The translations under genes were made by a program, and so were the position numbers. A stretch of 64,000 bases of DNA from Obrimoposthia wandeli (taxonomy: Eukaryota): positions 62,001-126,000 of the forward strand of contig CDROCS010005180.1 of the NCBI GenBank assembly GCA_977020255.1, written 5' to 3'. The notes below the pieces were generated by a model. It was not told the DNA's origin. It worked only from the letters and a program-made list of their open reading frames with translations, and made no database searches. Shown one piece after another: positions 14,499 through 60,800 of this stretch (positions are counted from its first letter, which is position 1; every line of letters begins with the position of its first letter).

Positions 14499-14569
14499 TA
14501 CAACAATTTGAATATATAGAAAATTTAAATTTAGGTAAAGAAGGGTTAGCACCCATATCTTTAGCTGAT

Positions 14570-20166: not shown

Positions 20167-20175
20167 CAATTATCA

Positions 20176-20628
20176 ATGATGAACGATATCCAACAGATAT
20201 TAAGCTGTGATGAAGATTTAGAAATGTTTGGAGAATCAGATAAAGATATGTATGAAGATATGAAACAATATTTCAAATACAAAGTCAGATTCTTGAAGGC
20301 TCGACTGATTGCTTTAGTAAATCCTGTGACAATTGAAAGAAGAACGTTCAGCTATTATCTATCAAATATTCAAAAACCAGATTTTCAATATCTAAAACAG
20401 AAAGTTGAAAATGAAGTTCCAAATTTTATTTTCAATAAGAACGAATTTTATATCCGAGGAGCTGATGCAGCATTTCTAGATGACTATGGAAGAAAAATAA
20501 ATGTTGATGCGTTTCCGAAAAAGAAGCAATGGACTGTAACAATTCGACTCTATGGTTACAAGAAAGATGAAATTGGAACAAAGATACCTATGTGGAAAAT
20601 TGAACGTGCTCATATCTCTATGTTTTAA
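20176..20628 (+). CDS. Intact 150-aa ORF, unknown function, possible beta-barrel/SSB-like C-terminus
   Basis: Uninterrupted ORF in very AT-rich DNA; AATAAA downstream; C-terminal motif shared with the next ORF. Confidence 0.6.
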   Translation: MMNDIQQILSCDEDLEMFGESDKDMYEDMKQYFKYKVRFLKARLIALVNPVTIERRTFSYYLSNIQKPDFQYLKQKVENEVPNFIFNKNEFYIRGADAAFLDDYGRKINVDAFPKKKQWTVTIRLYGYKKDEIGTKIPMWKIERAHISMF

Positions 20629-20792
20629 CTTTTTTCTTTCATTTTACATGTAATAAATTGTAATCGGTTTTATTCATTTTTACTATGTTTCTTTCATTTG
20701 GCAATTAATAATCAGTTTATTTTTCATGATATTTGTATCTTATATGTATTTTTTTATAAACATTGTTTTTTTAACAGTTTCTTTATTTTAGA

Positions 20793-21203
20793 ATGGATCC
20801 TCTCCTGAGATATGTAGGAAATTTTTATTATACAGAAATAATTTCAAAAGGAAAACTATGTAATATATTAAAGAGGCATCAAATTATACCAGTTATGAAT
20901 CCTGTGAAAATATCAAAAGTAAAGAATAAATATCTCATTGAAATTTTAACAACATCTGATATTGATCAATTGAAAAATATTTTGGGATTTTACATACCTG
21001 ATTACGTATATGAAGAAAATTCTTTCCAGTTTGAAACTGATCCCAGTTTGACTTTTAGAGATGATCTCAGATATTTGATTGCTCTAATTTTAGATGAAGA
21101 ATTATGGAATATTTTAATACGCCTCAATGGTTATTTTGCTGATGACGGCGAAATGCACTCTCTTTGGACTTTGAGTGAACCCAATGTGGTGTTTTATGTT
21201 TGA
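20793..21203 (+). CDS. Intact 136-aa ORF, probable paralog of 20176-20628
   Basis: WNILIRLNGYFADDGEMHSLWTL aligns with WTVTIRLYGYKKDEIGTKIPMWKI. Confidence 0.6.
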   Translation: MDPLLRYVGNFYYTEIISKGKLCNILKRHQIIPVMNPVKISKVKNKYLIEILTTSDIDQLKNILGFYIPDYVYEENSFQFETDPSLTFRDDLRYLIALILDEELWNILIRLNGYFADDGEMHSLWTLSEPNVVFYV

Positions 21204-21339
21204 TTTAAAAAATGCTTTGACTCATATTTTGATTTTTTATAAATTAAAAAAGACTAAATGTTACTTCTTAAAAATTATATTTTTATGAAAGAATTTGACG
21301 AAGTAATCATTAGGATCACACTCATTGGTATACCTCCAA

Positions 21340-23200: not shown

Positions 23201-25433
23201 AATCATCAAGTGACCAGAGTGGTGAGTTGAAGAAATACCAGACCAATAGAAGAAGTGACACACAGAGGAGAATAGAAAATCAGTGGACGAAAATAATGAT
23301 TAATCAGGAATAACCAGAAAATTGATATGAAAGAAGCATTACCTCTACAAGAAAATAAAAAATATCTTGGACACCATACAGAAGAAGAAGAATTTTAAAG
23401 GAAGCCGCAAGAAGGTCGACTCAACCAAGAACAGGTTGCAACAAGAGAATTGAATCATACGACAAGCAGCACTACAGAAGGACCGATATTTATACGGTGA
23501 GTAATCCTATATTGTAATTTTAAATCTAAACTTCGAAATTGAGCAAATTACAATTTAAACTAGTAAAATTGTGTTTATTTATCCTGTAGCAGGATCATTA
23601 TTTTTGGTAAAAATAAAATCTGGGTAAAATTCTTAAGCATGAAACACGCTCAAGCCTTCTTTAACTTTTAACCCTATTGTTTAGTCAAAATAAAATCAGC
23701 CTGTAAACGACACAAAACACATTATCCCAGACACATATTGATCAATTGGTCAGAGTTTACGTGATTCTTTTTAACATTGTTGTTGTGTAAAATTCTAGTT
23801 TTAACCGACTTATTATATTTAATATTTTGATTTTGGTAATAAAATAAAGCACTTTATATTTTGAAAAAAATCGTTCTAAAATTCGACAAATAAGACAAAG
23901 ACAATACGATAATTTTTGAGAATATTTTTGTCGTACACGTTTTAAAACATAGAGAATAACCCTACGGTTTTAGCCGAAAAACATAAATTTTTAAAAGTCA
24001 TCGACTCTCTGATTAAGCGAAGATTTACAATTAAATGAGGTATAAAAAACGTATACCTTCAGATAATTTTTGAGACGAATAAGAGGATAGGCCGTCTATA
24101 CAAGTCCTATCAATTTAAAAAACTCACGCACCAGAGGCTTCCCTAAGTAGCGTTACAACTCTGGTTCCAACACCTTCATTATCTAAATTCTGTAAGCTGT
24201 GTAAGTGGGAAAATGTGTATTTCAAACATTACAATAATATTGGGTTTGGTATTGGTTTGTCATATTTTTGAAAAATAGAAAAAACTTTAAATTATTTTTT
24301 AAATTGGAAAATGTAGACTAAAGAATTTTTTTTTATTTTTTCACTTTTGAATTTAAGCAAAAATTTCAAGATTAATAAATAAAAATGTTGCAAATATCCC
24401 AGTAATAGGAAAATGGTTAGACCAGAGCACTATCTAAAAAGGGAGTAATAACAACGTTTTGGGTTGTGGTCTGGTCTATCCAATTTCCTATTACTATCTT
24501 TGTAGGGCAAGCCCAGTGTGTTGGAGTAACAACTAATGAAACTAATAGGTTTAAACACTAACCTTTGAGATTGTAGTAGATTTATTAAAATTAGTCTTCT
24601 AAATAAAAAATTGCAACATAAATAAGCATTTGAACTTAATCTAATCAATTCTAGAATCTAATTCTTTCCAGTATGATACCCCAACAATTCAAATTAATGT
24701 TAAATCATTTTATTCCATATCTCTAGTGATAAATTTACCAATGTCATCAATTTTTATATAATGTCTTTCTCAAGCTTTTAATTAGTTAAATAAGGCTATT
24801 TTGTTGGCTAAGTATCAATGGAAATAAAAATAATATACCTGGTATTTTCGAGATTTTGTAATTCTAATTCCAACGGGTGAATTTTTTTAAATGAAAAAGT
24901 AATAAGATTTATAAAATTTGCTTGAACTAATACACACTACAAATGAATATAATTTTCGTTATTACATAATTTATTATAAAGTTTAAAATGCAAATAATAA
25001 TAAAATATTTATTTTATATTCGAAACATTTTTATTAGCATTTATTTACTTCAAAATTAAATATATTAAATGTAATTATATTTCTTTGCTAGTCCCCTAAG
25101 AAAATTTATCTTTAAGAAATAATAAGTAATGCATGTTTACTGAATTTTATAACCTTTTTTTAATTAAAATTTAGTTAGATAAAACAGAAACTTGTATTTT
25201 TTAAATTTTACACAATTTGCAAATATTTAGAGTCTATATTGAAAGTTATTTTAAATTTAACATGGTACTGAGGAATTGTTTTTATTTTCTTGTTTAGTTG
25301 TACCATTTGTTTATATCTGTTTAAATTGTTTTCGAAAGTGTAATTACACAAAGAAATACTGTGTAAATTGTAAATTATTATAATTTTAAGCCCCTTAATA
25401 TATTTATTTAGATTTCAAAATTAACCCATAGAA

Positions 25434-27363
25434 ATGAACATTCAAGGAGGAGATCAGAATGACCAAGCCCTGTGGAAACAGTATCTAAATATACCAGAAA
25501 AAGATTCGAGACTTAAAACTGTTGATGTAACTGCAACCCAAGGAAATTCATTTGACGATTTTTGTCTCAAAAGAGATATTTTGAAAGGAATTTATGAAAA
25601 AGGCTGGGAGATGCCATCTCCCATTCAAGAGGCCAGTATTCCTATTTCACTAATTGGTAGAGATATTTTAGCCAGAGCTAAGAATGGTACTGGTAAGACT
25701 GGTGCTTATTCTATCCCATTGTTGGAAAAAATTGACCCAAACATTAATCAAATTCAAGGTATAATATTAGTTCCAACTCGGGAATTGGCCTTACAAACTA
25801 GTCAAATTTGTACAGAATTGGCCAAACATACCGAGACAAAAGTAATGGTAACTACTGGAGGCACAAGTTTAAAAGATGATATTGTGAGATTGCAGCAATC
25901 TGTTCATATTATAATTGCAACACCCGGTAGAGTTCATGATTTAATTAAACGAGATATTATATCGACAAACTTTTGTAAAATTCTAGTAATTGATGAAGCT
26001 GATAAACTTCTTTCAGCCGACTTCGAACAAGTTCTTGACTTCATCATTAATAAACTACCAAATCAGAGGCAAATCATGCTGTATTCAGCAACCTTTCCCC
26101 AAACTGTACAGTCCTTTTTAGTAAAGCACATGAAAGATCCTTACGAAATCAATCTCATGGATGAATTAACCTTGAAAGGTATAACCCAATATTACGCTTA
26201 CGTTCAAGAAAGACAGAAGGTCCACTGTTTAAATACATTATTTTCTAGATTACAGATAAATCAGTCAATTATTTTTTGTAACACTGCTCAGCGTGTAGAA
26301 TTGCTTGCAAAGAAAATAACCGACTTGGGATATTCGTGCTATTATATCCACGCCAAAATGAATCAAGTTTACAGAAATAGAGTTTTCCATGAGTTCAGAA
26401 ATGGAAATTGTCGAAATCTAGTCTGCACTGATCTGTTTACCCGTGGTATAGATATACCGTCTGTTAATGTTGTGATAAATTTTGATTTTCCAAAATATGC
26501 CGAAACATATCTCCACCGGATTGGAAGATCGGGTCGATTCGGTCACCTTGGTATTGCAATTAACCTTATTACGTACGAAGATCGCTTTGCGTTGAAGAAT
26601 ATAGAAACGCAATTAAATACGGAAATCAAGGCTATCCCTAAAGCAATTGATAAACGGCTATACGTGGCTGAGTGTCAGAATGAAAAAGAGCTTGATGCGC
26701 GAACCCGAGATGCGCTCGCTCGTGGTGAAGGCCAACTTCTCGAGCTGGATCCAATACAGTGAGTTAATAAAATTATTTTAATAGAACCCCAAACTACGCT
26801 TTTATAATTTATAAACTTATTTTGTTATGTATTGTATAAGGCTCTAAAATCTATAGATTTTCATGATACTTACAGAAATATTGAAAGCCGTAAATTTTCT
26901 TCTGTCTTGGTTTAAATTTTAAATAATAATAATTCAGTTTTAAATTGAAATTTTCAGCATTTCTTTTATTGTTATTACATAATAGGTGTGCTATTTTATG
27001 AAAATAAATGCTGGTCGCTATTCTTAAAACAATATCTAATTTAAATTGTAAATTAGTTATTTTTGTCTTCAATTTTTTAAAATATATATTTTAAAACCCG
27101 ATTAATTTTGAAAATACATTTAAAGACCACTTTGTGTTACATTTTTGATTAGACTTGCAGAATATGATTATGTTAATATCTTCATTTGCCAGTTAATAAT
27201 CAATTTCTTTCTCAGACAAGCTATGGCGAATGGGCCAATTACCAATGTACAGAAACCGAACCCACCCGTTCAGAAGCAAAACCCCATGAATCAAGGCGCG
27301 CGCAACGACTTTAATAACGCCTACTCTCAACGGCAGCTTCCCCAACAAAATATTCGACAGTAA
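25434..27363 (+). CDS. DDX6: DEAD-box RNA helicase DDX6/Me31B/Dhh1; exons 25434-26758 and 27216-27363
   Basis: [37 protein letters not shown] and RLYVAE are intact. GTGAGT donor at 26759 and CTCAG acceptor at 27215 join in frame to a Q/N/P-rich exon. Confidence 0.97.
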
Positions 27364-38703: not shown

Positions 38704-40087
38704 CAGTGGTTCTCAAACTTTTTTTACTCGCGGCCCCTTTTAAAAAGTTCAACCTACCTGCAGCCCCCCTACGAACAAACACTTATAAAACTTGTTGCGT
38801 AACATTATATTAAAAAATACAGTAAGACTATTAATGAGAGGGATGGTGCTGCATTTTCAACGCGAGTTCACTAATATTGTGCTTGGTTGTCGATAACGCA
38901 CATCGGAGATCGGATTCCACTAGTAATCGATTACGAGATTTCGTTTTCAAGGTTAAAAGGGAAGAAAATCCAGATTCGCATTACTAAGTGGTGCTGAAGG
39001 TTAAAATTATACGCAAGGCAATATCACCAAGAATGGGATACTTTGCAGCCATTTTGATCCAGAAATGGTGAAGGGACAAATCATCGAATAGCAGTTTATT
39101 ATATGACTCACTGACCATGTCTATGAACTGTTCTTGGGATTTAAGAGTGCAGTTTGGTACATCTTCTACCTCACAGCCAAAAGGATTTTTAACAAATTTG
39201 TGCAACTTTTCCGTGAACAAGTTTATAGGAAAATAATGACTGAAGTTATCGAAAAGTGATTGCATAAGGATTCTCATGTTTGTTTTGACGTTTTCATCCA
39301 CAATGACATTCTTCTGTTTCAGAAATGATGCAGTTGTAGGAAACATGACATAAGAATTTCGTGCAACCCCAGATGTCCATAACTTCAATTTGAGACTGAA
39401 TGCTTTTACCTTGTCTGAAGCGTCAATAATGGTCATTTGCTTGCCTTGTAACAAGAGATTTAGATAATTTATGTGGTTAAATATATCAACTAAATAAGCC
39501 AGATATAATACCCATTTGTTGTCGTCGGCTATTGCTGCCCATTCATATTTCTTTTTCTTTTCGAAAAACTCCGCAATCTCTTCCCTCAAACTGTAGACAC
39601 GCTGTAAGACTTTTCCTCTGGACAACCACCGGACGTGTGAAAAATATAATAATGCTTCGTAATCGCTTCCCATTTCAACACATAATTTTTGAAAAATACT
39701 ACTGTTTAATGCCGATTTCTTTATGTTGTTCACCACTTTAATGACATCATTCATCACTGATAACATCGGGGCCGGCATTGTTTTTGATGCTAGCATTTGC
39801 CTGTGAAACATATAACAATTAAACAAAAATAGCACTTGCCTGTGAATCATACAATGGGTGTGAATAACATTTGGAGATATTTCCTTAACTTTCTGTTGAA
39901 ATCCGGACTTTATACCAACCATGTTGGGAGCTCCATCTGTACATATTCTGCATAGATTTTCCCAATTAATGCCATTAACTTCGAAGAATACGTTGACTTT
40001 GTTGAATATATCTTGTGCCGTAGTCGTAGACTCTAGTTCGCTGCAGAACAAGAACTCATCCTTGATTTCCGAATTAGATTCCAGCAA
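38704..40087 (-). mobile_element. hAT transposon, Buster/SPIN (ZBED8/SCAND3-like) type, 5'-truncated
   Basis: TIR CAGTGGTTCTCAAAC at 38704; CTDGAPNM, HCMIHRQ, HVRWLSRGKVL, LAYLVDIF, FSTT then frameshifted CESGFS. Confidence 0.93.
39801..39839 (-). other. 39-nt GC-AG intron-like insertion in the hAT transposase
   Basis: CAG|GCAAGTgctatttttgtttaattgttatatgtttCACAG|G; removal restores HCMIHRQMLASK. Confidence 0.6.
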
Positions 40088-40630
40088 TATGAAACCATCC
40101 TGTTTATAAGAGTTGCAAAGATTTGGTTGCCAGAAAATATTTTGATTGTTCTCATGTTATATTTGATTTTTATTTCAAACTAATTCATTAGCAATAATTT
40201 CTGTCTTCAGTAGTAACAGCAACAAATAATGATCAGCAAAATTATATTTTCAGCAATAACAATAAAATAATGATCACTTAAAATTCTGTTTTAATCAGTA
40301 AATGCAATAACAATGGTCAGCAATAATTCCTGTATTCTGTAATAACAATAATAAATATGGTCAGTAATATTCTCTGTATTTTTTAATAACAATAAAAAAT
40401 ATGGTTAGTAATATTCTTTTTTCTTTAGCAATTTAAAAAAGTAATTTTAGAAATTATATCAAAGCTCTCTATGCCAAACAATTTTATATTCATTTTTCTA
40501 TCATAAGTGAGATTACATAAATTTGCAGACACACACATGTAAATCGGCCCCACTACACAGATAGAAGCAGTAAAATAACACGTGTTTTTAAAATTGGATA
40601 GTCAGAAAATCGATAGAGGATGCAGTCATT

Positions 40631-40748
40631 TCTTCTGTGTTATCTCCTATTTCGCGGGCAATTTTTCTACCGTGAAGCACAAGATAAAAACTCTACATCA
40701 CTGACAAAAATTGCTGTTCGACTGTGGTCATTTCGATAAATTGATTTA
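40631..40748. repeat. Dispersed direct repeat, copy 1
   Basis: tcttctgtg..catcactgacaaaaattgctgttc..cgataaattgatttaa also present at 47507-47607. Confidence 0.9.
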
Positions 40749-41486
40749 AATGAAAGTCAGACCTCTGTAGTTGAAGTAATAAAATCATAAAATTATCATA
40801 ATTAAATAAAACTTTCTTTTACATTAAAACTTAATTTGTATAAATAATTATAATACCCATTACATTCGTAATCAAAAAAATTAAATATGTCTTATGTTAG
40901 GTTTAGGAATTGTAAAAAATTAAATAATGAAGTGAATTTATAGTAAATAAAAATCCTTGAAAGCAAGGTTAGAATTAAATAAATTTTATATCAAAATTAA
41001 AATTGTCAAGTTTAAATAGTAAATAAATATTAAAGGACCACGAAGGTCGTGTGTAATGCGTGAGTATATATTAAGTTAAAATCAAAACAAAAGGGCACAA
41101 CAAAAAGAGAACACGAGAACTAAACGAATTAGAAGAATTAATCAAAAAGGAATCTTGTAATTATTACCGAAGAAGAAACATTACAATTATTATCGTGGGA
41201 GCCAGAACAGTTGCAGCAGTCGTCAATTTCCACATCAAAAGTAAGCGGAATCAATTAGTGAATTAACTGACATCTAATTGTCAGTTCCCACGGAATCCCA
41301 ATTCTTCGCAGTCAGCGACAATCGACATCGTGATCGAGAGATTTGACGGGATCAGTAGAATCCTGCACACCAACTACCGAAGTGATATTCGCAACCAATT
41401 AGAGGAGGTAAAGAATTTTACATATATAGAAACTGAGATAACTTCTATTTTGCAGTTGCCGATTCCGAACAGTTTACCCATTACAA

Positions 41487-41645
41487 GAAGCTACTGATTA
41501 CGAGAAGCTACTGATTACGAAAAGCTACTGATTTCGAGAAGCTACTGATTACGAGAAGTTATTGATTTCGAGAAGTTATTGATTCCGAGAAGATACATTG
41601 ATTTCGAGAAGTTACTGATTTCGAGAAGCTACCGATTCCGATAAG
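41487..41645. repeat. 17-bp tandem array (gaagctactgattacga), about 9 copies
   Basis: Directly visible, degenerating rightwards. Confidence 0.95.
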
Positions 41646-41695
41646 AAACTAAGGTAAAACACACAAATTCCCAATAGAGTTAATAGAATTAATAG

Positions 41696-41879
41696 AAGGA
41701 TTCGGATCGAGCCATCTCTCCGACAAACTCACTACTACGCTAAGGATTCGGATCGAGCCATCTCTCCGACAAACTCACTACTACGCTAAGGATTCGGATC
41801 GAGCCATCTCTCCGACAAACTCACTACTACGCTAAGGATTCGGATCGAGCCATCTCTCCGACAAATTCGCTACTGCGCT
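41696..41879. repeat. 46-bp tandem array, three perfect copies plus one variant
   Basis: aaggattcggatcgagccatctctccgacaaactcactactacgct at 41696, 41742, 41788 and 41834. Confidence 0.97.
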
Positions 41880-41949
41880 ACCGAGCCAACAAGCGGACAG
41901 CACCCCGCACGGATTTAGACCTAGGAGTTTTAAAGTGGAGGTGAGCCGA

Positions 41950-43620
41950 TAAATAGGAGTGAAATTATTTGGATTAAAATAGAAAGGAATTTTCACAGTT
42001 TTAATTGAATTAAAGTATTTCACAGTTTTTGAATTAAAGTAAAAAAGGAATTTTCATAGTCTTATTTGGATTAAAGTAGAAAGGAATTTTCACAGTTTTT
42101 GAATTAAAGTAAAAAAGGAATTTTCACAGTTTTTGAATTAAAGTAAAAAAGGAATTTTCACAGTCTTATTTGGATTAAAGTAGAAAGGAATTTTCACAGT
42201 TTTAATTGAATTAAAGTATTTCACAGTTTTTGAATTAAAGTAAAAAAGGAATTTTCACAGTCTTATTTGGATTAAAGTAAAAAGGGAATTTTCACAGTTT
42301 ATTGAATTAAAGTAAAAAAGGAATTTTCACAGTTTTTGAATTAAAGTAAAAAAGGAATTTTTACAGTCTTATTTGGATTAAAGTAGAATGGAATTTTCAC
42401 AGTTTTTGAATTAAAGTAAAAAAAGAATTTTCACAGTTTTTGAATAAAAGTAAAAAAGGATATTTTACAGTCTTATTTGTATTAAAGTAGAAAGGAATTT
42501 TCACAGTTTTAATTGAATTAAAGTATTTCACAGTTTTTGAATTAAAGTAAAAAAGGAATTTTCATAGTCTTATTTGGATTAAAGTAGAAAGGAATTTTCA
42601 CAGTTTTTGAATTAAAGTAAAAAAGGAATTTTCACAGTCTTATTTGGATTAAAGTAGTAAGGAATTTTTACAGTCTTATTTGGATTAAAGTAGAAAGGAA
42701 TTTTCACAGTTTTTGAATTAAAGTAAAAAAGGAATTTTCACCGTTTTAATTGAATTAAAGTATTTCACAGTTTTATTATGTTTAAAGTAAAAAAGGAATT
42801 TTCACAGTTTTTGAATTAAAGTAAAAAAGGAATTTTTACAGTCTTATTTGGATTAAAGTAGAAAGGAATTTTCACAGTTTTAATTGAATTAAAGTATTTC
42901 ACAGTTTTTGAATTAAAGTAAAAAAGGAATTTTCATAGTCTTATTTGGATTAAAGTAGAAAGGAATTTTCACAGTTTTTGAATTAAAGTAAAAAAGGAAT
43001 TTTCACAGTCTTATTTGGATTAAAGTAAAAAAGGAATTTTCATAGTCTTATTTGGATTAAAGTACAAAGGAATTTTCACAGTTTTATTTGAATTAAAGTA
43101 GAAAGGAATTTTCACCGTTTTAATTGAATTAAAGTATTTCACAGTTTTATTTGGTTTAAAGTAAAAAAGGAATTTTCACAGTTTTTGAATTAAAGTAAAA
43201 AAGGAATTTTTACAGTCTTATTTGGATTAAAGTAGAAAGGAATTTTCACAGTTTTAATTGAATTAAAGTATTTCACAGTTTTTGAATTAAAGTAAAAAAG
43301 GAATTTTCACAGTCTTATTTGGATTAAAGTAAAAAAGGAATTTTCATAGTCTTATTTGGATTAAAGTAGAAAGGAATTTTCACAGTTTTATTTGAATTAA
43401 AGTAGAAAGGAATTTTCACCGTTTTAATTGAATTAAAGTATTTCACAGTTTTATTTGGTTTAAAGTAAAAAAGGAATTTTCACAGTTTTAATTGAATTAA
43501 AGTATTTCACAGTTTTATTTGGATTAAAGTAAAAAAAAAGAAGAAATTTCACAGTTTTATTGAAATTAAAGTAGAAAAGGAATTTTCATAGTTTTATTTG
43601 AATTAAGGTAGAAAAGAAAT
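41950..43620. repeat. Minisatellite of roughly 50 interleaved 27/34/36-bp variant units
   Basis: Units cacagtttttgaattaaagtaaaaaaggaatttt, catagtcttatttggattaaagtagaaaggaatttt and cacagttttaattgaattaaagtattt. Confidence 0.97.
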
Positions 43621-44604
43621 TTTATTGATTGCATTGTGAAACTAATTATCAAATAAAATTGAATTGCCCATAATTACGTTAAATTGCCGAAATTGTATTG
43701 AGATTACCCCGCAATTGAAATTGGAATATTCCGCATTATTGCCTAAATTAGAGCAGCAACTCTACTGAACTTCATCCCGTGCTAGAGCAACAGCTCGGTA
43801 AACTACTCGTACTTTAGAGCAACACTCTGCGAACTTGCCGCAATTTTAGAGAAAAAACTCTAGCATCAACCAACCCTAATACCTAAAATCGATACGTGGT
43901 TCATCCCCACTAGTGTAGAGACTTTCAGAAGTCTTAGGAATTTTACTACAACTTTTTAGAAAATACGTACGTAAACGTATTGTTTTGTTTAGTCTAGTGT
44001 GTTAACAATAAACGATTTCCTACATTAGAAAGCATTGTTCTAAACCCTTCAGATTAAGACACAACAAAAAACCTTCAGATAAGAATTGAGACAGGCACCT
44101 ATAACCTTAAGTAGGCCACAACCATCCCTAAGACCTGCTTCTATATAACTCACGTTAGGGCCCTCCACATTCAAGAGGATCTATAAGTTTCATATAGAAA
44201 CCCCAACACTTACTACACTATGAAAGGGCCTCAGAATATTGCATATAATTAGAATAAGAATGTCCGTGTTCATGCAAATGTAAAATGTATTTTTAATTAA
44301 AAAAATAATAAAAGGATTCATAATAATTGTTTGCGTTACGTAGTCAATCAGTAAGAATAAAAAAATCCAATATAAAATTGTGTTATTTTCCAAAAACAAA
44401 TAATCTTTTAACTACGAGAATTATATAATTTTTTATATTACCAATATTATTATTTTTATTGTCGTCATTTTTTTGTTGTTGTGTTTTTTAAAAAAATATA
44501 ATTTTATTATTATTCAGTTAACAGCTTTTTATTTACTAATTACTTCATGTAAGTATTTTTTAAAATTTCAAATATAAGATTACATTTTTTGTTACTCAAG
44601 TTTA

Positions 44605-45075
44605 TTAGTTTTCTTTAATTACTTGTTGACATAAATTTATGTGTACTCTTATTTCTTTTAGTTTTCGGTCATTTTCAAGTTTGGCTGTTATATTAATTCC
44701 GTAATTACTAATTATTGTATATGAACTTTTGTATAGCATAGATAATTTGTGATATAGACCGACTGTAATTTGTGAGTTGTGATTCATTATTTTATTTCCA
44801 AATTTTAATTCTGACGATCTAGTTGGTCTGTTGTAATATTCTTTATAGTTTTTTTAAATATTTTTTATAAATAACTTAGCTTTTACAAATGTAAGTTTTA
44901 GTTTTTTTCTAATTTCTTTTTTATATTCTGTTATTTCTAGAAAGTGTGTTGTAGGTTGTATTAATGTGAAATTAATATACATTTGAGCATCTCTAAGGAA
45001 CATAAGGTAGAATGGTGTTTCTCCAGTAGTAAAGGTATCTTTAAAAATTAAAATATTGACTATTAGTAGTGTTTT
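44605..45075 (-). pseudogene. Gypsy integrase C-terminal region
   Basis: TTGETPFYLMFLRDA, YKEYYNR, GLYHKLSMLYKSSYTII (GPY/F-like) and RVHINL. Confidence 0.8.
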
Positions 45076-45426
45076 CCATAGTGCAGGTTTTACTATTGAG
45101 TTGTGACTATGCTGCTCACAATATGTTATGAATGTCTCTATGCGTACTCTACAATCAAAATCTTCTGCATATATAAAATCTGTTTCTTGGTTTACTTGAT
45201 ATAATTTTGTATTTTAAATTTTAATTTCTTTTAGGTCAGCCTCTGTGCATTGTTGCAAATCCATTAAGGAAAATTTGTTTTGTATTTTATATTTTGGACA
45301 GTCATAAACTTCTAGAGCATTAATTAGTTTTATCATGTTCATAAATAGACATATTGTTAATATTATCTTTATAAATTTCCATAAACTTTGTATAATTTTG
45401 TTGAATTTTTTTGTGTTTTTAAACAT
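45076..45426 (-). pseudogene. Signal peptide plus N-terminus of a chuvirus-type (class III) glycoprotein
   Basis: Hydrophobic leader, then LEVYDC..FSLMDLQQC..KLYQVNQ..FDCRVRIETFITYCEQHSHNSIV. The YDC/SL-D-C/C-x-V/C-x-x-HSH-x-S pattern is recognised from recall. Confidence 0.62.
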
Positions 45427-46811
45427 TTTTGATTCGTTTTTTCTTGTGTGTTTGCTTTCTTTTCCTGAGTTTGAGTAATTTGGTTTGTTTTTGTTGTTGT
45501 ATATTTATTATTTTGCAATGTTAGACAACCATCTCTAAACATGTCTTTAAATTCGGATTGTAAGTTTGTTTTCTCTGTATTCGGTTCATTGTTATGGTAT
45601 TGTTGATGCATTTCTCTGTAGCGATTATCCATTTCTTTAAGTCTTAATTTTAATAACGCAAATTCATCTGTGTTTGGAGTTGTTTCTGCATTTTCAATAG
45701 TGTGTATAGGGTTTCTAGGAGTATATTATTGATCTTGAGTATTGAATTGTACTGTTTTTTGAATTTGTGGTTATTGATTTATTGTTGTGTTTCCAAATTG
45801 ATTCATAATTGTGTTTAATTTTCTACAGTCATCGGTGTTGTCATTTTTCATATTACATATCTTACAAAAAAATTTATTGTTATTAAAATATCTATTTTGA
45901 TTATTGTAATTATTGTTTGATTTATTGAAATTATTATTCCTTGGTAGAGTATTATTACTTTACCTATTTATTAGTTTTCTACAAGTTTCAATCGTGTGAT
46001 TGTTGTTTTTGCAAAATCAGCAAAATTTTATGTTACTTAATTTTTGACAATTTTTTATTGTGAGATTTTGGAGTCCACAATTTGTGCATTTTTGAAAAGA
46101 TCTTTGTGTAAATTGTGAGTTTGTGAAATTTCGAATTGACTGATTTTTATAAAAACTATTTATTGGTGGTCTAAATTGTTGATGATTTTGAAATTTATAT
46201 TGAGTATCTGGGTTAAAATTCTGAGTTTGGTTGTAGTTTGGTGGTCGTTGTATTTTTTTCAAAAGATAGTGATGAGACTTCGGTTTACTGTAACATATTT
46301 AGTCTTGCTTCTACTAGCTGAGCTTTTCCTGTAGCTTGTTGAAAGTTTTCCACTTCTAGTAATGCTGGGTGATCTCTGATTTTATTATTTAAACAATATA
46401 AGAACTGATTTAAAAGTAATAATTCTCTTTGTGCTTCCTCAATTTCTTGAAATGATTTTGAAGCTAATCATCGCAATTCGACTACAAAGAAAATCGTGGG
46501 TTCTCCTATATGTTGTTCACGTTGTCTGAATTAATTTATGTAAATTTGTTCTGTTTGTACTCCTAGAATTATATTTTGAAAATTTTGTACTAAATGTTCC
46601 CATGTGTCTTTTTGTTGCTCAGTTAATCCTCTATAAATAGTTAAGGCTCTCTTTAGATACTCTTTAGATATGCGGGGAAACCTCTAAATTTTTCTGGGTA
46701 AGTTCATTCAAATGCCTGAGCAAATGAATCGTATATATTCAAGAATTCTTGCAAAGAAGATTTATCGCCATTAAAAGCGTCTGGTGGTACATTCATTCTA
46801 TGACCTGCCAT
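45369..46811 (-). pseudogene. Ty3/gypsy gag with three Cys/His knuckles, disrupted
   Basis: PDAFNGDKSSLQEFL..YLK..ALTIY..W..L..F..RQREQHIGE..FVVELR.LA..LLNQF; knuckles CTNCGLQNLTIKNC, C*FCKNNNHTIETC and CKICNMKNDNTDDC. Confidence 0.85.
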
Positions 46812-47506
46812 CTGAAGTACTTCGTTTATTGGTTCGTTATATTATTTCTATGTTAGGTGATTCTGGTAGTGCCACTGTTTCTGTTGTCTCTGACGAATTG
46901 TCTGAGTCAGATGTTTGTGGTAAAGATAACATTCTGTTTCAGAAGTTTATGTTAGGTTTGGATCTGATAATTGTTTCAAATGTTTAAATCGTAAGAATGT
47001 TTATTAAACTTGCTGAATCACTAGAGAATGTTTGATATTTGTCTTGAGAAAAGGATGGAGTTCAGGGAAAATTTTGTTTTTGCTTATTTATCTTGTTAAA
47101 TTAATATGTGCAAATTTCTTGTTTGTTTGTGTTTATTCGTATAATCTTCAAATTTAGTTTGATTTTATAATCGTCGAGTGTGTTTAAGAGTTATCCGTTA
47201 TATTCTTAAATGAGTATGTGATAGATTATAGTATCAATGCCTCAATAGTATTTTGCAACTATTTAACTATAATTATGTTTAAGTCTAAATTAAGGAATCC
47301 AAATAGTTATTTATAAGTTATTGCAGATTAGTAATTTTTTTAAAAATTGTGAATTAAAGTTTGCTGCTCTTTGAAAGAATTTCTAAATTGAACACACAAT
47401 ATTTTATTAACAGTGTCGTCTCTATAAATGCTTAAGTATAAGATTTTAATTGAGAAAAAATGTAAATATAGTACTCAGATGCGAGTAGTTAAGATAGTTA
47501 AGGTAG

Positions 47507-47607
47507 TCTTCTGTGATATCTCCTACTTCGCGAAGCACAATATAAAACCTAGACATCACTGACAAAAATTGCTGTTCAACTGTGGGCATTTCGATAAATT
47601 GATTTAA
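47507..47607. repeat. Dispersed direct repeat, copy 2
   Basis: Matches 40631-40748 minus an ~18-nt segment. Confidence 0.9.
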
Positions 47608-48857: not shown

Positions 48858-51800
48858 ATGGAGAGTGCTAGGAAATCTCCAATAAACTTTAATCACAAGC
48901 TGGAATCTGAGCGTGCAAAAATGAAACGCACGAAAGTAAAAAAGCAAACCTATGAGACTCAGATGTTGCAACCTTCCGACAACAGAGACATTTTAGTCAA
49001 AGAAGAAAGAAAGCCATTGTGTGATGACAACAAAAAGGAGTCAAATAACTTTCGATCAAATTATGGTTGGTAACCTTTTGTTTAATATGTTAAATATTAT
49101 TTAGCCTATGACGGTCCGCAGGCATATGAAATGATAAATCCAGATGGAATTACATCTACACACGTTCAGGTTCTTCGTGTAAATCCTGAAAAAGTTGAGC
49201 CAGAAAATGAATTCGTAGGTCAGTGGCTCAGTTACAGTTTACTTTGTTACATGGCTTGAAAAAATAAATTATAAAAAAATGTAGGTAATTATCAACTAGG
49301 GTGAGATATAAGCAATTTCTTTTCATATTTCATTTCATATTTTACTATCCTAGTTTGATTTGATAATATGAACAACTATTAACCATCAGTACAATTTTCA
49401 TTCTATAAATCATAAAATTTGCCCAAATTAATTCATAATTTTTAAAGTTTTGTGATTTTCATTTTAAATTAAGTAAAATTAAATTAACTTAAGCGATTTT
49501 AAAAAATAATTTGTGAAACTCAAAATTATTACCTGGTATTAAACTGACTAAATAAGTTGATGCGTACTTTATTTCAACGAATTAGTTATTTTGTGATAGG
49601 ATTACAGATTAGTATTAAATATACACTTGAATTTGATGCTTTTGAATGAGTAGATACTAACCTACAGACAAACACTTAATTAAACATGCAGTCTTGTATT
49701 AATTCCGTTTCATTTTTTAAATATCAAAACAAAGACTAAGTTATTTTATTTTTAGTGCAATTAACAATTTATTTTATCTGACGTAATTAAAAAATTAAAG
49801 GACAAACTTTTTAAGATCTAAAACCTGACTAAATTATGACAAAGTTAAAAGAATATGACTTTTTATGACAACAAACATAAAATGAAGAAAAACACAAATA
49901 ATTAATTTTCTATACTATGTATTAGGTTACGTATGAAATGTCGTACTTTTTATTAAAAATCAAAAGCTAATAACTTTCCAAAACTAAGTTTATTTAATCA
50001 CAAAAGGGTCATAAGCATCAGTACATTGCTGTCATTTATGCAAAAGTTTATTTATTACATTTTGATAAAATTCTAAATCTTTGAAGTCTAAAAAATCCAA
50101 AAAGGCACTTTTGACAGACCTGTCGTCTCTGAACACTCTACCGTCGATAAATGTCTGAAATTGATTGAAAAAATAATAATCTATTGGTGCTAAGTCTGGA
50201 GAGTAAGGAGAGGGATGTAAGACTTCATATCAAAGTTGCTTAAGCTTCAGACTAGTAACTTTAGAAATACGTGGTCTAGCATTGTCATGTAAAATAATAT
50301 GACCTGTTCTATTAACTAATGAAGGCTGTTTAATCAAAAATTTTCTGTGCATTTCTTCTATTTCTACACAGTACTTTTCGGATTCAATAGTTTCACCAGA
50401 ATTTAGAAAGTTTTAATGAACAATGCCAGCTGCTGACAACCATACAGTAACCATTATCTTTTTTCTTGAACTTCAGATTTTGGAAAGTGTTTAGGAGGTT
50501 CATTTTTATAAACCCATTGAGCCGAGTGACGTCGATTGTTATATTTAATCCACTTTTCGTCACAGGTTACAAATCGATTCACAAAAGATTCATTTTCATG
50601 TCGTTGAAGCAAAGAAAAACAAATTTCATATTGTCCTATTTTTTTTAAATTAAGTTCATGAGGAACCCACTTATCTAGCTTTTTGACTTTTCCTATAGAT
50701 TTTAAATTCTGAGATATTGTTCCATTTGATACTTGTAAAACGGCAGCAAGTTCTTTGAGACTTTGGCGAGGATCAGACTCTACTAAGTCCTTCAAAACTG
50801 TGTCATCAACAACGGACTCCGGACAGCCTCGGTCTATATTTCGAAGACTTGTATCTCCATCATTAATTTTTTAAAATCAACGTTGAAGGATTCTAACGTT
50901 AGCTGTACTCTCTCCAAATGTATATCTATGTTTATGGTTGCGTCAGATGCATTATGACCGAGTTTCCATTCATAAAAATAAATCGAACAAATTTGAATGT
51001 TTTCCATCTTAAAATTCTATCTAAAATAATGTCAGTAATTTAAAATAGTATGAAACGAAACTTATATATTTAAAATGTTTAAATTTCAAAGATATTAACT
51101 GATATCTTAAAACAAAAAATGTTTCATTTTCAAAAAAAATCTGAAGTTGAAAATTATATGTTAAAAATACGACATTCCATATTGTTCTATATTAAAATAA
51201 ATAACAAAATATTTTTCGTACAAATTGTCTATCACTTGTAATCAGTTTATTTAGCATTAAAAATATCTTTCCACTGCTGCAGATGTAGCCTGACATTTTT
51301 AAAGCTTTGCGTATAGGGTTGGTGATATTGTTGGTCTAGTATATTAACTATATCCAAAACGTAATTTGAGTTTAATCGTTTAGTTAAATATCTTTTAATA
51401 TCGCATATACACACCCAAATTAAATTTAACAATTTAACGGCTTCAATTGTAATTATGGGGTTCGAATTTTATTACTAGTTCAAAGATTTTCATATAACCT
51501 CTTTGTATGTCATAAGTCTTTATCTACTTAATTTACACTCTTTAGCCAAGTTCTCCACCTTGTTACAACTGGTTGAGTGGCATTCCAATTTCATGAAATA
51601 AATCACGGCCATACTTGTTTTACAATCAATAGTTTTATTGAACTTATTAAGTTATCAACAGATTCAAAATATTAAATTTTTATTTTTATAACACAATTAC
51701 GTAACTAATGCAAAGACACGTTATATGAAAAAGATTATTTGGAAATTATTTATTTCAACCCCTAATTCACGAACACTATCATCTTTTGTACGTTCAATTA

Positions 51801-54800: not shown

Positions 54801-57800
54801 TAAAATTTGAAAGACTTTTTTAAAGGGGCATATATGATTTAATAATAGAAAATAAAGTGATATTTTTTACAATGTGTATTATTTTGTAACAAATATTTTA
54901 TTCTGTATCTATGTTTGCTTAATTATGATATATTTGTCAAGTTTATTCAACTGATACCCATTTCATATTGAAGTACATGATTTTGCACAGGCTGCCAATG
55001 TCCATTTGGACTTGGCTGTGCTTTAATTGACCAGGTGACTGAAATCAATTATACATGCTCTCTGATTTGGCTACTATATACGCAAGTGGCGGTGTTAATT
55101 AAAAAAATGTACAATTTCATGTCCACTTTATATCATCTGGCTCGTGTTCAATTAAACAATTTTACTCACGTTTTAACAAGTGTTTTTCAACGTTGAATAT
55201 AAACCCAATTGAAAATCCGATAAATTGATTTTTAAAAGCAAGTTTGAAATAATTTAAGTGGAAATGCAAAATAAAACGATTATTTTGAATACAATGTGTT
55301 TGGAATATATACCAGTTTTCACATTGCCATTGTTTGTTTTGTTGTAGAACAAACAATGAAGAAAACTTTACATACATTTAATAATTACTTAACAAAATAT
55401 AAATTTATTATAGCGTCAATTTCAATTGTAAAAATAATTAGTTAAAGACCATATATTTGAGTAGTTAACTGTAGTGTTATAAATAAATATGCATTGATGT
55501 ATCGTCTAAATGCTTCGATATTATTACACTTTTTTATTGTTAATGACAAACTATTGTAAAGCTTATGTGCTTGTATGGGAAACATGTTGTCTTCTTTTTT
55601 CGTTTTACATCTTTGAAATACCAGTCTATTATCGTCATTTCCTCGCAAGTTTTTATTTAATAATATAGTAACATAATGTGAAGAAGTGAACAGATTTGAG
55701 GCATTTTTAGAGGTTTGAGAAGAGGAGTTACAAGTATTGAAAGAAGAAAACAGATTACTAGAGACAAAGATGTGTTTCAGACGTATATTTTTGAAGTTTG
55801 CAGAGAAAGAAGAAGATAAATTCCGGTCTAGTTTGTGTCATGTTTTAAAATGAATGGATTGATATTATTTATATCCGAGGTTATATGTAAGATAGTCAAA
55901 AGGAATAGATGGTAAGACTGTTTATGTTACAATCGAAGATATAGAACGCTTACAACGATAGTAGCACCAGTGGGATGGATGAGAGAAGTTGAAGAAGAAA
56001 GGAAACTTTAAGGGTGTGTTTTGAAGCATGTGGAGGATCAGAGTGTTTGTGATTAGATAAGGGATCCCAAGGCTTCACATTACCAGAGGGGGCAGCAACA
56101 GATGATTATGATTGAAACTTTCTGCGTCTTCGTGACTTATGATTAGACTTGTGACTTGACATATTTACAAAAAATGAAATTTAAATTAAACGAAACACAA
56201 GAGTCTATTAACATTAATTATCATTAAAAGAAAAATCTAAATCTAAACAAGAATAGAGAAAAACAAAATATTCAAAGATAAATTCAACAAAAAATGAGAA
56301 ATAAAATGTTTTTTGATACCCACTTTAATAATTTTGCATTATGTATTGCGTGCTAGGTAATAAATGACGTTATATAAATATTTAGTCATTTTGTGTGATC
56401 AAATTTCGAGTAATTTCTGAACAACCCTTGTATGATCTTCTTTTATATTTTTAACTGTTAGAATTTGGATGGAATTTACATCGAAGATTGTCATTAAAAG
56501 GGTAAATATATGGATAGTGCGAATATAATTTGAAATATAGGTTTAATATGTGCAGTATAATAGAATAATATAATTACGAATATGAGGCTCTATTTAACAA
56601 GAAACGACTACAACTGTTAGATAATCTAATCACAGATATGTAAATGTGGATCCTTTGCAACTTCTGAATATCTAACGGGAGAGTATATATTGCAATGAAA
56701 TAGCTCCATACCACCGGTTATTGCACTTGCACCAAAACCAGAAGATATGATACCGTATCATATTAAATCTGATAAAGTTGCAATGAAATCGACAAAGTGT
56801 AACAGATTTGCTGTAAATCAAAACAATTAAAATTGCAAAGTAAATTAAAAAAAAAATCAAAAAAATATTATATTTAAAATTTTCACAGCAAATGTGAAAC
56901 ATATCGATACACATAGAAACAGTAAATAATGTACACATATTAAACAGAAACACAGAAACATCACATTCACCGCTTCTGAATAGAATAAGTATAGTAACTG
57001 TCTAATCAACAACATGTGACAATTATAGGAATGACGTCTATTTGACCGTGGAAGTTGAATTTCTTGAGTGGGGAAGTATCAACATGATCTGAACTAGAAG
57101 AATGGGTTTGAAAATGATATCTGTCTGCAGAGTTCTCCTCGTTAAGTCCGAAATCACTTGTATTTTCTTCTTTAGCGTCAACGTCATCAATGATAGTATC
57201 AGATTGGCATGTTGGTTCAGGTGCCATATTTCTCACTGAAACGGTTGGAATCACGGTCGTATTGAAAATAAAAGCGAATGTGTAGTGAGAATTAGCTTCT
57301 GATAACTCAACTTCTTCAATAGCTGGATCGTAATTCGACTGATGTACCGGTCCCGGCTTTGTCAATCATGCGGTATAGTTGATCCATTTGATGAATTTCT
57401 ATAATAGTTAGACGATCGTTCACGATGGGATACATAATAGCAAACAGATGGTTATGGTCGAACGTGCTTGATTCAGACTTATGGTCTCTTATGAGTGTCA
57501 AATTTCCTCCAGTTAGATATTGTTTCCATTTACAACAATGTTTCTAAAATTACACAAGTTTCTTTTTCTATTGATGGATATTTTTGTTCACTCGGTGATA
57601 GAGTATGAGATATAAATATCTTAATAAATCTTCTGTTTTGTTTTAAAGTCGCTGCAATATCATAGTCAGACCCGTCGGTTTCGACTGTAAATGGTACGAA
57701 CTCATTAATAAATTTGACTGCATCATTTAAGGGGAATGAATTCTGCAAAGCTAAAGAATAAACCTTTTCGGAGAATCAGTGAATGAATTTAGAATAGTAA

Positions 57801-60800
57801 GAAAACAATCCAAGGCTCGACTAAGTGAGGCCCTGTCGTTAGAAACGGGTAGTTTGCGCACTGATTTGAATCTACCTGTCCAGTGTGATTTTCCTATTTG
57901 ATACTGTGTAACCAAGATACATTTTTCATTCATTTGAAATGTTTGATTTTTTACATTGAACGTAAATTTAGATGTAGATGCTACCCTAGGAACCTAGCCA
58001 ACTTCGCAGTATGCTCAGATTTAGATTTTCTGCAAATCAATATATCATCAATGTATGCGTATGTTTCAGTGAAACCATTAATTTTGATGAAGTTATCCGT
58101 AGTTATTTGAAATTGAGCTACTGAGTATGTTAATCTGAATGCCAAACGACAAAATCGATACTAATATCCGCAGCTTCAACGACCCGTGTAAAGTTTGTCA
58201 TAATCTGAAATCGGTATTTGAGGATACGTTATTCAGGAAGCGTCAAGTTCAGTAAAACGATTTATGGTTCTCGAGTAATCTTAAATCATGCATTTTTGTT
58301 GTGATCTTGCGATTCAATTATTACTATTTGGGATCTCCATGGTAAGTAGCTCGATTCAATTATACCATCAGAAAGTAATGGAAAAACTTCGTTTTGATAA
58401 ACTTGTTATCTGGTTCACTGCAACGACGTGAGTTTGTAGTGACATGTTTACAATCCGTAGTAGGAAAGAATAATGTTGGAGTATCTATATTTAAAACAGA
58501 TGTCAAGGCGCATTTGATCTTTAGCTGTTTTCGTTTCGCCAAAGTAAAATGTTACAGTCATGTTGACTTAGAAAGTCTCGGCCCAAGACACTGTCATAAA
58601 TTCAATAATATGGAGAGATCTACGTTTGGACATTCAAAATATTGAATAGTTACTTTAACTGTACTGCACCCGGTATTTTTATTTTTACAGATGAATCAGC
58701 CAAGATAACACTACCAATTGATGGGATTAAAGTCATTTCGCATGACTGGGTGACATCTTTCTTAATGAACTTGTCTGAACTTCCAGTATCAACCAACACT
58801 TTTCATGATTTACCATTAATCTTTATTGAAATGATTGACTTTTTAGATTCAGATAAGGATCATTAGTAGTTGTTTATTACGACGTTGTTGAAGGAGAATT
58901 CATAATGTGTGTTGTAGCTGAATAGGGATTGTTAGGCCGTGAAGACGGTCGCGATCAGTTATAAACTTTAAAGAAGTGACCTTGAAACATATCATATCGG
59001 GAGAGCTTGTAAAGGTTTCTTTGGAACTAGTTAGTCAGCTATGACTAACATGGCTAATACATATATTTATTAATCACCATACCCGGTTACTTGTATGATT
59101 TAGAGGTACGACTTTTGTACGACTTTTGATGCTATTTACGATAATACGATTTTAGAAGAAGTTAAAATAAAAATATTTTTGAATTATTATACGGTATCTC
59201 TAAAACAGTACAAGCATTAGTTTGCCAACTGTGAATGAATAAACGCTTTCATTAGTTTATTTTAATGTAAATGTAATATGCATTAAAAAGATAAAATCCT
59301 CTACACGAATCGTGCATAATTGGGTTACACAGTTACGAACTCAATAAAATAAAAAAACTTGCCTTAAATGTCCATGTATAATTTACGATTAGTACGATGG
59401 TTGCAATAATGTACCAAATTATGATTAAGTTTTGTAGATAACTAATGCACATTACAGAGGAAATTTATAGAAATAAGCACACCGGACGGTAATTTTTTGG
59501 TTTTTCACAAATGAACAGTATTACTTTGCTCATATATTTAATTTATGAATTTTTCTGGAATCATTGAATACAGTGGAAGTATGCTGAATCCTTTCTCTGA
59601 TTAATTAGTTCCAGAATTTTTACCATTTGTAAAATGTATCAAAGATATCAACATTTTAAAGTTGTTCGTTTATATAACATTTCAATTAATATATCCTCTA
59701 ATTCCTGTTTTATTTTTATAAACTTCAGTTTATCGTATTGTTTCTTTTATGATATGATCATATATTTCTGGCGTTCTTTGAAGGTGTTTCATAAGAATTT
59801 TCGTGCACCATGATCTCTGGTTTTCTCCCTTCTCCCTTCTTTCTGCTAATTGTCTGATTTCACAAAAATACCAGTCCTTGGATTTAGCCTCGAAAACTCC
59901 ACACACCCATTTCCCACATCATCAAGATCATTGAAGTGCCTTCCTTTCAGAAAAGATTCCATCGATCTAAAGAGGTGGTTCTCTGAAGAAGCTAAGTCTG
60001 GGTTATAAGGTGGATGTGGTAACAATTCGATGTCATAAAAACCTTGTAGTTTTCAGACATTTTTTAGAGGTAATCAAAACTATTTTGGAAAATTCAATTG
60101 GAATTGACTACAATTTCATCGGTTGACGTCTATAAACTAATATGAATATGATTTCACGTATTATGATTTTAATATTACTAGTTAAAAAGAAAATTAAAGC
60201 ACCGTAAAGAGTTAAACGTCACAAATCGCTCATATAATTTTGAATTTTAAAATAAATTACATTTTTGTTGTTGTTTTCATTAGCTTTAAAAATTCATTTG
60301 ATATTCAAAAAACATTTTAAAATTTTATTATAAATTTTTATTTTTATTATATTTTTTTAAATTAGAGCTTATAAGTTTAATTATGATTTCATTATTAATT
60401 TATCATTGATAAATTCAATATCATTTATTTGCACTTGATATTAAACTCAATATTTTTTTATAAATGACGGATGGACATCTGTATACAGATTAATTACGGG
60501 AATGCTGTGAAAATAAGGCGGTTAGTTGAGTATATGTTGGGAGCTAAATTAGGTATTATGCTAAATTTGGCGATTGTGACTTTGTTTATTTATTACCTTG
60601 CAAACGCCATCAAAGATCTATAAATCACAAAATACGAAGACAATTCTGGATTTTGATAGTTTTAAATAATGTTTGGCAGTCGCTGTAATTGCAGACTGAG
60701 TTGCTACAGTTGAATTCTCGCAACTCGATACATAGCACCATATCATTGGATGTGCTCAGATTCGCCATGTGGGTGGTGCCGAATTGTTTCTGGAATTCAG

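What the first reader, a model, noticed from the sequence alone, without database searches (positions are those of the whole stretch)
44605..46811. Gypsy-like element with apparent gag-env-pol order and a chuvirus-type glycoprotein
On the minus strand gag is overlapped at its end by a signal-peptide ORF reading YDC..SLMDLQQC..C-x-V..YCEQHSHNSIV. After HSHNSIVKP the same frame runs into the gypsy integrase tail (TTGETPFYLMFLRD..GPY/F-like). The simplest history is gag-glycoprotein-pol, with one in-frame deletion removing most of env and pol. Chuvirus-like glycoprotein capture is known for BEL/Pao elements, and env normally follows pol. A gypsy-type element with this class III fusogen placed before pol would be an unusual, potentially infectious retroelement lineage.
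Basis: partly seen in the sequence, partly recalled or inferred. Interest (0 to 1): 0.8.

Follow-up and report, generated by a model that had tools for sequence, protein, structure and literature searches.

The report
Dead planarian gag-env-pol gypsy retroelement
This is a broken, internally deleted copy of a flatworm retrotransposon whose virus-like envelope gene sits between gag and pol, an arrangement that is real but already described in planarians and nematodes.

Summary
On the minus strand are a decayed gag, the first ~95 of 653 profile positions of a Monjiviricetes (chuvirus-type) fusion glycoprotein (Pfam PF24664, E 1e-11) and, in the same frame, a gypsy integrase tail. Three public polyproteins match all three pieces in this order within one chain. 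In 10 of 10 relatives that carry both the glycoprotein and a pol domain, the glycoprotein comes first. So the window holds a gag-env-pol element that lost about 4.7-5.7 kb. Two corrections: the env/integrase junction lies about 20 codons later than stated (45030-45022), where both reading registers overlap on two to three codons, suggesting a microhomology deletion; and the gag/env 'overlap' is probably decay of one long ORF. The arrangement is not new. A neighbouring DDX6 gene points to a triclad planarian host. In-frame env between gag and pol was reported for planarian Burro (PMC6431247). GAG-ENV-POL gypsy elements with gB-type env are catalogued in Platyhelminthes (six in Schmidtea), Nematoda and Bryozoa (PMC13524379). 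This copy has nine internal stops, at least one shown frameshift and no intact LTR pair. It is dead; infectivity is untested. Low interest.

The parts
46288..46826 (-). gag capsid-like region, decayed (frame change near 46650; 3 internal stops in the homologous frames)
   Evidence: tblastn to P0035 residues 17-74 and 75-193 in two frames, E 2e-10; phmmer to P0238/P0239/P0237 residues about 51-212, E 7e-17 to 1e-15 for the second frame; stops
45369..46298 (-). gag C-terminal part and spacer: Asn/Gln-rich, three degenerate Cx2C knuckle-like motifs (46088, 46022, 45866), 4 internal stops
   Evidence: No Pfam or phmmer support; the assignment rests on position and a by-eye likeness to the same part of P0035
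45022..45432 (-). N-terminal piece of a Monjiviricetes/chuvirus-type (gB-like) fusion glycoprotein with its hydrophobic signal segment; one internal stop at 45216-45214
   Evidence: Pfam PF24664 E 1.2e-11; hydropathy peak at residues 37-55; alignment with 17 relatives
45022..45030 (-). env/integrase deletion junction; both registers overlap on these codons; about 4.7-5.7 kb missing
   Evidence: env register F158 12/17, T160 9/17, G161 10/17; integrase register T160 13/13, P164 13/13; missing 1564, 1662 and 1886 residues against P0008, P0020 and P0007
44605..45030 (-). gypsy integrase C-terminal tail (end of core plus degenerate GPY/F region); one internal stop at 44856-44854
   Evidence: matches residues about 2050-2185 of P0008 and 2897-3031 of P0238
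46827..47300 (-). probable 5' leader of the element (same A-rich strand bias as the coding part)
   Evidence: A 0.39-0.52 against T 0.24-0.29 on the minus strand from about 47250 to 44500; boundary not defined
47507..47607 (-). upstream copy of a 101-nt direct repeat, possible 5' LTR remnant (uncertain)
   Evidence: 9 mismatches in 101 aligned nt plus one 18-nt indel against 40749-40631; no TG/CA ends
40631..40749 (-). downstream copy of the same repeat, possible 3' LTR remnant (uncertain)
40895..44208 (+). later insertion downstream of the integrase stop: candidate 3.3-kb solo LTR of another element (TGTT...AACA ends, 4-bp duplication, internal tandem arrays)
   Evidence: 1 of 2 TGT...ACA pairs with a matching flank in the scanned ranges

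Best explanation
A dead, internally deleted copy of a triclad-planarian Ty3/gypsy LTR retrotransposon of the known GAG-ENV-POL type. Shown here: the three pieces and their order, and the existence of single polyproteins Gag-Env-PR-RT-RH-IN that match all three. Inferred for the intact progenitor: one long ORF. Gag stays in the cytosol; the internal hydrophobic segment just before the YDC motif acts as a signal that sends the glycoprotein ectodomain into the ER; a transmembrane helix about 530-570 residues later returns the chain to the cytosol; the aspartic protease that follows releases Pol. The class III-type glycoprotein would let particles fuse with other cells (established for such viral fusogens, untested for this family). 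Inferred for this copy: a deletion joined a (T/S)TG stretch early in env to the matching stretch at the end of the integrase core, most simply by reverse-transcriptase template switching or microhomology repair. Stops, frame changes and a solo-LTR insertion followed.
For: PF24664 hit. The top two library hits and P0020 match both the env piece and the integrase tail and are G-PR-RT-RH-IN single chains. P0237, P0238 and P0239 match gag, env and integrase pieces in order in one chain. G precedes pol in 10 of 10 proteins with both, among 113 examined. A profile of the relatives finds Ty3 Gag-Pol as best PDB match, E 3e-183. Register overlap at the junction. Continuous A-rich strand bias across gag, env and integrase. 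Second hydrophobic peak in P0007, P0008, P0020 and P0035. Host DDX6 is 91% identical to a Dugesia japonica protein, next best 76%. Same architecture published for planarians.
Against: Identities to relatives are only 26-38%, and no DNA of an undeleted copy was obtained (searches found none in prokaryotic contigs), so nucleotide microhomology is inferred from protein registers. Residues 143-155 score poorly in both registers. 17 of 27 G-bearing proteins carry no pol domain, so relatives with env as a separate ORF after pol cannot be seen by this test. The integrase-tail tree puts the window beside 5 of 6 G-upstream elements with only SH-aLRT 81 on a long branch, quick method, 25 of 92 hits dropped as short. 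No intact LTR pair or PPT was found; no PBS search was run.
Confidence: 0.88

Rival explanations
1. Chimera: the gag-env piece and the integrase tail come from two different GAG-ENV-POL (or one env-less) gypsy families, joined by recombination at the short shared stretch.
For: Best-scoring relatives differ by piece: P0012/P0015/P0018 for env, P0009/P0010/P0007 for integrase, P0238/P0239 for gag. The tree placement of the tail is weak.
Against: Single proteins match all pieces in order. Strand bias is continuous. Several of the best piece-wise hits are fragments that cannot show the other pieces.
Confidence: 0.08
2. A gag-pol-env element was rearranged, or a chuvirus glycoprotein EVE was inserted into an env-less gypsy, giving a false gag-env-pol order.
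For: Chuvirus-type glycoprotein EVEs often lie beside gypsy fragments in arthropods without proven capture (PMC10084718). Gypsy elements with this glycoprotein next to pol exist in insects (PMC13524379 methods).
Against: 0 of 10 relatives have pol before G. The env frame aligns with polyprotein relatives upstream of the signal segment. The published screen's columns give ENV-POL 830/253 against POL-ENV 0/4 for Schmidtea and 16/5 against 0/0 for Dugesia.
Confidence: 0.03
3. The env-integrase fusion frame was selected or domesticated by the host, for example as a receptor decoy.
For: The junction keeps the frame. Solo glycoproteins have been proposed as antiviral in mosquitoes (PMC7642597).
Against: Two internal stops in the fused frame, the first 30 codons after YDC. 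An in-frame junction is expected if env and pol share one ORF and the join uses matching codons.
Confidence: 0.01

Closest known systems
GAG-ENV-POL 'errantiviruses' with HSV/gB-type ENV in Platyhelminthes, e.g. Smed_errantivirus_1-6 (Chary and Hayashi, PMC13524379)
   Same: Ty3/gypsy pol, gB/Chuviridae-like env placed before pol, flatworm host. By eye, the window's env residues 98-161 follow the start of the six Schmidtea env rows (YQE-DF, C, CG-HSH-S, F-TG pattern). This comparison was not computed.
   Different: Those are intact and multicopy (1-215 copies). This copy is deleted and full of stops. Identity to any named element was not measured.
Burro/GYPSM1 giant gypsy elements of Dugesiidae (Arkhipova and Yushenova, PMC6431247)
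   Same: Env in frame between gag and pol in one polyprotein, with hits to mononegavirus fusion glycoproteins; planarian host; decaying fragments noted in Dugesia japonica.
   Different: Burro has a 4,873-5,140-residue ORF with MATH, SUMO-like and BCL2 domains between gag and env. Here gag start to env signal spans only about 1.4 kb (about 470 codons; P0035 has about 540), so there is no room for them.
Non-canonical nematode ERVs (Sacco et al. 2022, doi 10.1099/jgv.0.001739)
   Same: Metavirus with an RNA-virus glycoprotein and ENV before POL, according to its title and the description in PMC13524379.
   Different: Nematode hosts. The paper itself is not held, so details were not compared.
Anakin (BEL/Pao with chuvirus glycoprotein, PMC7642597)
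   Same: Same kind of glycoprotein in an LTR retrotransposon.
   Different: BEL/Pao backbone and mosquito hosts, whereas the pol of the relatives here is Ty3/gypsy type.

Membership tests
GAG-ENV-POL gB-type gypsy elements (PMC13524379) | Ty3/gypsy-type pol | tested here: met
   The window keeps only the integrase tail, which matches gypsy-type polyproteins; the relatives' profile hits Ty3 Gag-Pol best, E 3e-183
GAG-ENV-POL gB-type gypsy elements (PMC13524379) | Env of chuvirus/gB (class III) type by sequence family | tested here: met
   PF24664 above cut-off. For relative P0065, the nearest Atlas clusters are PF24664 (0.95-0.96), then rhabdovirus G, gp64 and herpes gB clusters (0.91-0.95) (calibration not measured for protein parts)
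GAG-ENV-POL gB-type gypsy elements (PMC13524379) | gB-like five-domain trimer fold and cysteine-bridge class | tested here: inconclusive
   Single-sequence model of relative P0065 failed (pLDDT 33); no fold search was run; the window keeps only about 15% of env
GAG-ENV-POL gB-type gypsy elements (PMC13524379) | Order gag, env, pol | tested here: met
   Window order; 10 of 10 relatives with both G and pol; 3 proteins match all three pieces
GAG-ENV-POL gB-type gypsy elements (PMC13524379) | Intact ORFs with full RT and integrase (the paper's inclusion rule) | tested here: not met
   RT, RH, PR and most of env and integrase are missing; 9 internal stops. The copy is a remnant, not a catalogue-grade element
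GAG-ENV-POL gB-type gypsy elements (PMC13524379) | Flanking LTR pair | tested here: inconclusive
   Only a 101-nt, 91% direct repeat without TG/CA ends
GAG-ENV-POL gB-type gypsy elements (PMC13524379) | Placement in the published Platyhelminthes RT clades | not testable with these tools
Burro/GYPSM1 | Env in frame between gag and pol | tested here: inconclusive
   In frame with the integrase tail in the window, and with gag in relatives, but the window changes frame between gag and env
Burro/GYPSM1 | Giant ORF with MATH, SUMO-like and BCL2 accessory domains between gag and env | tested here: not met
   About 470 codons from gag start to env signal; no Pfam hit in the spacer
Anakin (BEL/Pao) | BEL/Pao pol backbone | tested here: not met
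   The integrase tail and the relatives' pol are gypsy type

The most novel reading that the evidence does not exclude
The remnant belongs to a compact triclad lineage, distinct from Burro, in which Gag, a class III fusogen and Pol are made as one membrane-threaded polyprotein with two or three aspartic-protease-like domains (one after the integrase in several relatives). The env-integrase microhomology deletion may define a non-autonomous sub-family that was copied in trans. If so, the lineage offers a tractable case of how an envelope is cut out of the middle of Gag-Pol and whether such elements move between planarian cells.
Probability: 0.2. Interest if true: 0.4.

Novelty: new member of a known kind. 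Interest (0 to 1): 0.15.

Why it matters
Little on its own: it is one more decayed copy of an architecture already published for planarians. It adds a likely microhomology deletion between env and integrase, and points to public single-chain Gag-Env-Pol proteins (P0237-P0239) with extra protease-like domains. These bear on an open point for the family: how the fusogen is processed and whether it works without partner glycoproteins, which PMC13524379 calls unknown.

Tried and rejected
Word-indexed homolog search with the env piece against longer proteins: 0 of 83 candidates scored. PDB sequence search with the fused frame: 0 hits. Two scans of prokaryotic genome contigs for DNA of relatives: 0 of 192 and 0 of 21 pattern matches confirmed. 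Cluster-member look-up for ten relatives could not be made, so their host taxa stay unknown; P0008 carries a bacterial MAG label on a 9,084-nt contig, which I read as a mis-binned eukaryotic element (inference). Single-sequence fold of P0065 was unusable. The careful integrase tree did not finish; only the quick tree is reported. LTR search upstream against downstream found only the 79/101-nt repeat; the other hits were AT-rich, 58-75% identical. tblastn of 109 relatives found no further env, protease or RT piece of this element elsewhere in the window; other hits were an integrase at 13.9-14.4 kb and an RT/RH remnant at 57.5-58.4 kb. A paper search for 'Monjiviricetes' with retrotransposon and envelope gave 0 papers. 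Sacco et al. 2022 is not held. Rejected: junction directly after HSHNSIVKP; separate env ORF with its own start; BEL/Pao backbone; novelty of the gene order.

Full report
Observation. Read with X at stops, residues 47-143 (45366-45076) match Pfam PF24664 Monjiviricetes_fusion at E 6.3e-11, profile positions 5-100 of 653; the piece alone scores E 1.2e-11, against a cut-off of 27 bits. The gag pieces and the integrase tail had no significant Pfam hit and were identified through relatives. A word-indexed search (0 of 83 candidates) and a PDB search (0 hits) found nothing.

Relatives. An exhaustive phmmer search of 1.84 billion representatives returned 109 proteins at E up to 0.001. The two best, P0007 (2,855 aa) and P0008 (2,627 aa), and P0020 (3,243 aa) match both the env piece and the integrase tail. 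Pfam on 30 of the 109 shows these three as single chains with PF24664 first, then protease, RT, RNase H and integrase. A search with the env region of P0008 among proteins of 1,444-4,598 aa gave 5 hits of 3,412 candidates, four of them new, on contigs of 12-20 kb. P0237, P0238 and P0239 (3,700-3,771 aa) are Gag-G-PR-RT-RH-IN chains and match the window's gag (E 7e-17 to 1e-15), env (9e-15 to 1e-9) and integrase tail (9e-19 to 2e-15) in that order (E-values for a 13-protein set). P0035 runs capsid, knuckle, Asn-rich spacer, signal, G, start of protease, with G starting near residue 549, close to the window's spacing of about 470 codons. Across all 113 proteins, 27 carry G, 10 carry G and a pol domain, and G is first in 10 of 10. 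The limit of this test: env encoded as a separate ORF after pol cannot appear in a single protein, and 17 of the 27 have no pol domain. A profile of 11 relatives finds Ty3 Gag-Pol as best solved match (E 3e-183). For relative P0065 the nearest Atlas clusters are PF24664, then rhabdovirus G, gp64 and herpes gB; its single-sequence fold failed (pLDDT 33), so the class III fold was not shown here.

Junction. Aligning the window with 17 env and 13 integrase stretches and scoring both registers without gaps shows the env register holding through HSH (9/17, 13/17, 9/17) and again at F158 (12/17), T160 (9/17) and G161 (10/17). The integrase register is negative from 141 to 158 except one residue, and starts at T159/T160 (2/13, 13/13), with P164 13/13. 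Residues 143-155 fit neither register well. The missing stretch is 1,564, 1,662 or 1,886 residues against P0008, P0020 and P0007 (4.7-5.7 kb). That a short shared sequence guided the deletion is inference; no undeleted DNA was found. A quick tree of the tail (67 of 92 hits kept) places the window, on a long branch, beside a group holding 5 of 6 G-upstream elements with SH-aLRT 81; this is weak.

State of the copy. Nine internal stops lie in the homologous frames: 1 and 2 in the capsid part, 4 in the spacer, 1 in env, 1 in the tail. One frame change near 46650 is shown by tblastn. Two more, near 46290 and within 45504-45369, are inferred from the single ORF of relatives; the env frame aligns with relatives upstream of its ATG. 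An A-rich minus-strand bias runs from about 47250 to 44500. No intact LTR pair exists; a 101-nt repeat (47607-47507 and 40749-40631, 9 mismatches, one 18-nt indel) may be a remnant. Between the integrase stop and the downstream repeat lies a 3.3-kb plus-strand segment, 40895-44208, with TGTT...AACA ends, a 4-bp flank duplication and tandem arrays, read as a solo LTR of another element.

Host. The DDX6-type helicase ORF at 25431-26762 is 91% identical over 99% of its length to a Dugesia japonica protein; the next best of 120 listed hits is 76%. The host is most likely a triclad planarian.

How it worked. Shown: order and single-chain architecture in relatives, with a hydrophobic peak just before G and another about 530-570 residues later in P0007, P0008, P0020 and P0035. 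Inferred: the first segment acts as an internal signal, the second as stop-transfer anchor, and the protease behind it frees Pol, so Gag, Env and Pol come from one translation. That class III glycoproteins fuse membranes is established knowledge; for these elements the entry mechanism is stated to be unknown (PMC13524379 discussion). This copy can make none of these proteins.

What is known. PMC13524379 (seen: abstract and outline, passages, section 14 whole, first parts of sections 5, 6 and 9, search hits in supplementary files 1, 2 and 6; figures not held) states that elements in Nematoda, Bryozoa and Platyhelminthes carry only HSV/gB-type ENV arranged GAG-ENV-POL, and that this glycoprotein resembles Chuviridae envelopes. 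It lists 9 flatworm elements, 6 from Schmidtea mediterranea with 1-215 copies. Its screen columns for ENV-POL give 830/253 in Schmidtea, 59/20 in Girardia and 16/5 in Dugesia japonica (first 30 of 55 flatworm rows seen). By eye, the window's env residues 98-161 follow the start of the six Schmidtea env rows; this was not computed. PMC6431247 (passages) reports env in frame between gag and pol in planarian Burro, with hits to mononegavirus fusion glycoproteins, and decaying Burro fragments in D. japonica. Sacco et al. 2022 was seen only as a citation. PMC7642597 and PMC10084718 (passages) cover Anakin and arthropod glycoprotein EVEs; the latter found no clear gypsy capture in its arthropod set. 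PMC12440569 (first of five parts) was not relevant. The unread parts and figure supplements of PMC13524379 may already place this family.

Verdict. The element works like, and by order, env family and pol type belongs with, the published planarian GAG-ENV-POL gypsy elements, though it fails their intactness rule. It is not Burro proper, because the accessory domains are absent. Interest 0.15.

Noticed in passing
window 40895-44208 (+): Candidate 3.3-kb solo LTR with TGTT...AACA ends, a 4-bp flank duplication and 17-, 46- and about 36-nt tandem arrays; long LTRs with tandem repeats recall giant planarian gypsy elements.
   Followed up: partly
P0007, P0010, P0016, P0017, P0018, P0078, P0238, P0239: Relatives carry two or three aspartic-protease-like domains, in several cases one after the integrase; P0016 and P0236 also have ankyrin repeats, and P0065 a weak Bcl-2 hit before G, as in Burro.
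   Followed up: partly
P0008: A G-PR-RT-RH-IN polyprotein is labelled a Flavobacteriaceae MAG hypothetical protein on a 9,084-nt contig; probably a mis-binned eukaryotic retroelement.
   Followed up: no
window 25431-26762 (+): Uninterrupted DDX6/Me31B-type helicase ORF, 91% identical to a Dugesia japonica protein.
   Followed up: yes
window 1345-3123 (+): BEL/Pao remnant (RVT_1, Peptidase_A17, DUF5641) with an exact 78-nt tandem duplication at 1883-2038.
   Followed up: partly
window 13568-14570 (-): rve integrase in two frames; it looks Maverick/Polinton-like from memory, not tested.
   Followed up: no
window 17685-17880 and 19967-20166 (+): Near-identical direct repeats 2.28 kb apart ending in CCCAACA: a possible LTR pair of a small non-autonomous element, followed by three ORFs (20140-21896) with no Pfam hit.
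   Followed up: no
window 8196-8419 and 22487-22820: Inverted repeat arms 71-83% alike, 14 kb apart; possibly two copies of one gene or element in opposite orientation.
   Followed up: no
window 38984-40156 (-) and 50032-51016 (-): DNA transposon remnants: a 390-aa ORF that looks hAT-like from memory (no Pfam hit) and a Tc1/mariner-type transposase with weak Pfam hits.
   Followed up: no
window 57475-58405 (-): A separate decayed gypsy RT/RNase H fragment, 10 kb upstream of the element; no link shown.
   Followed up: no
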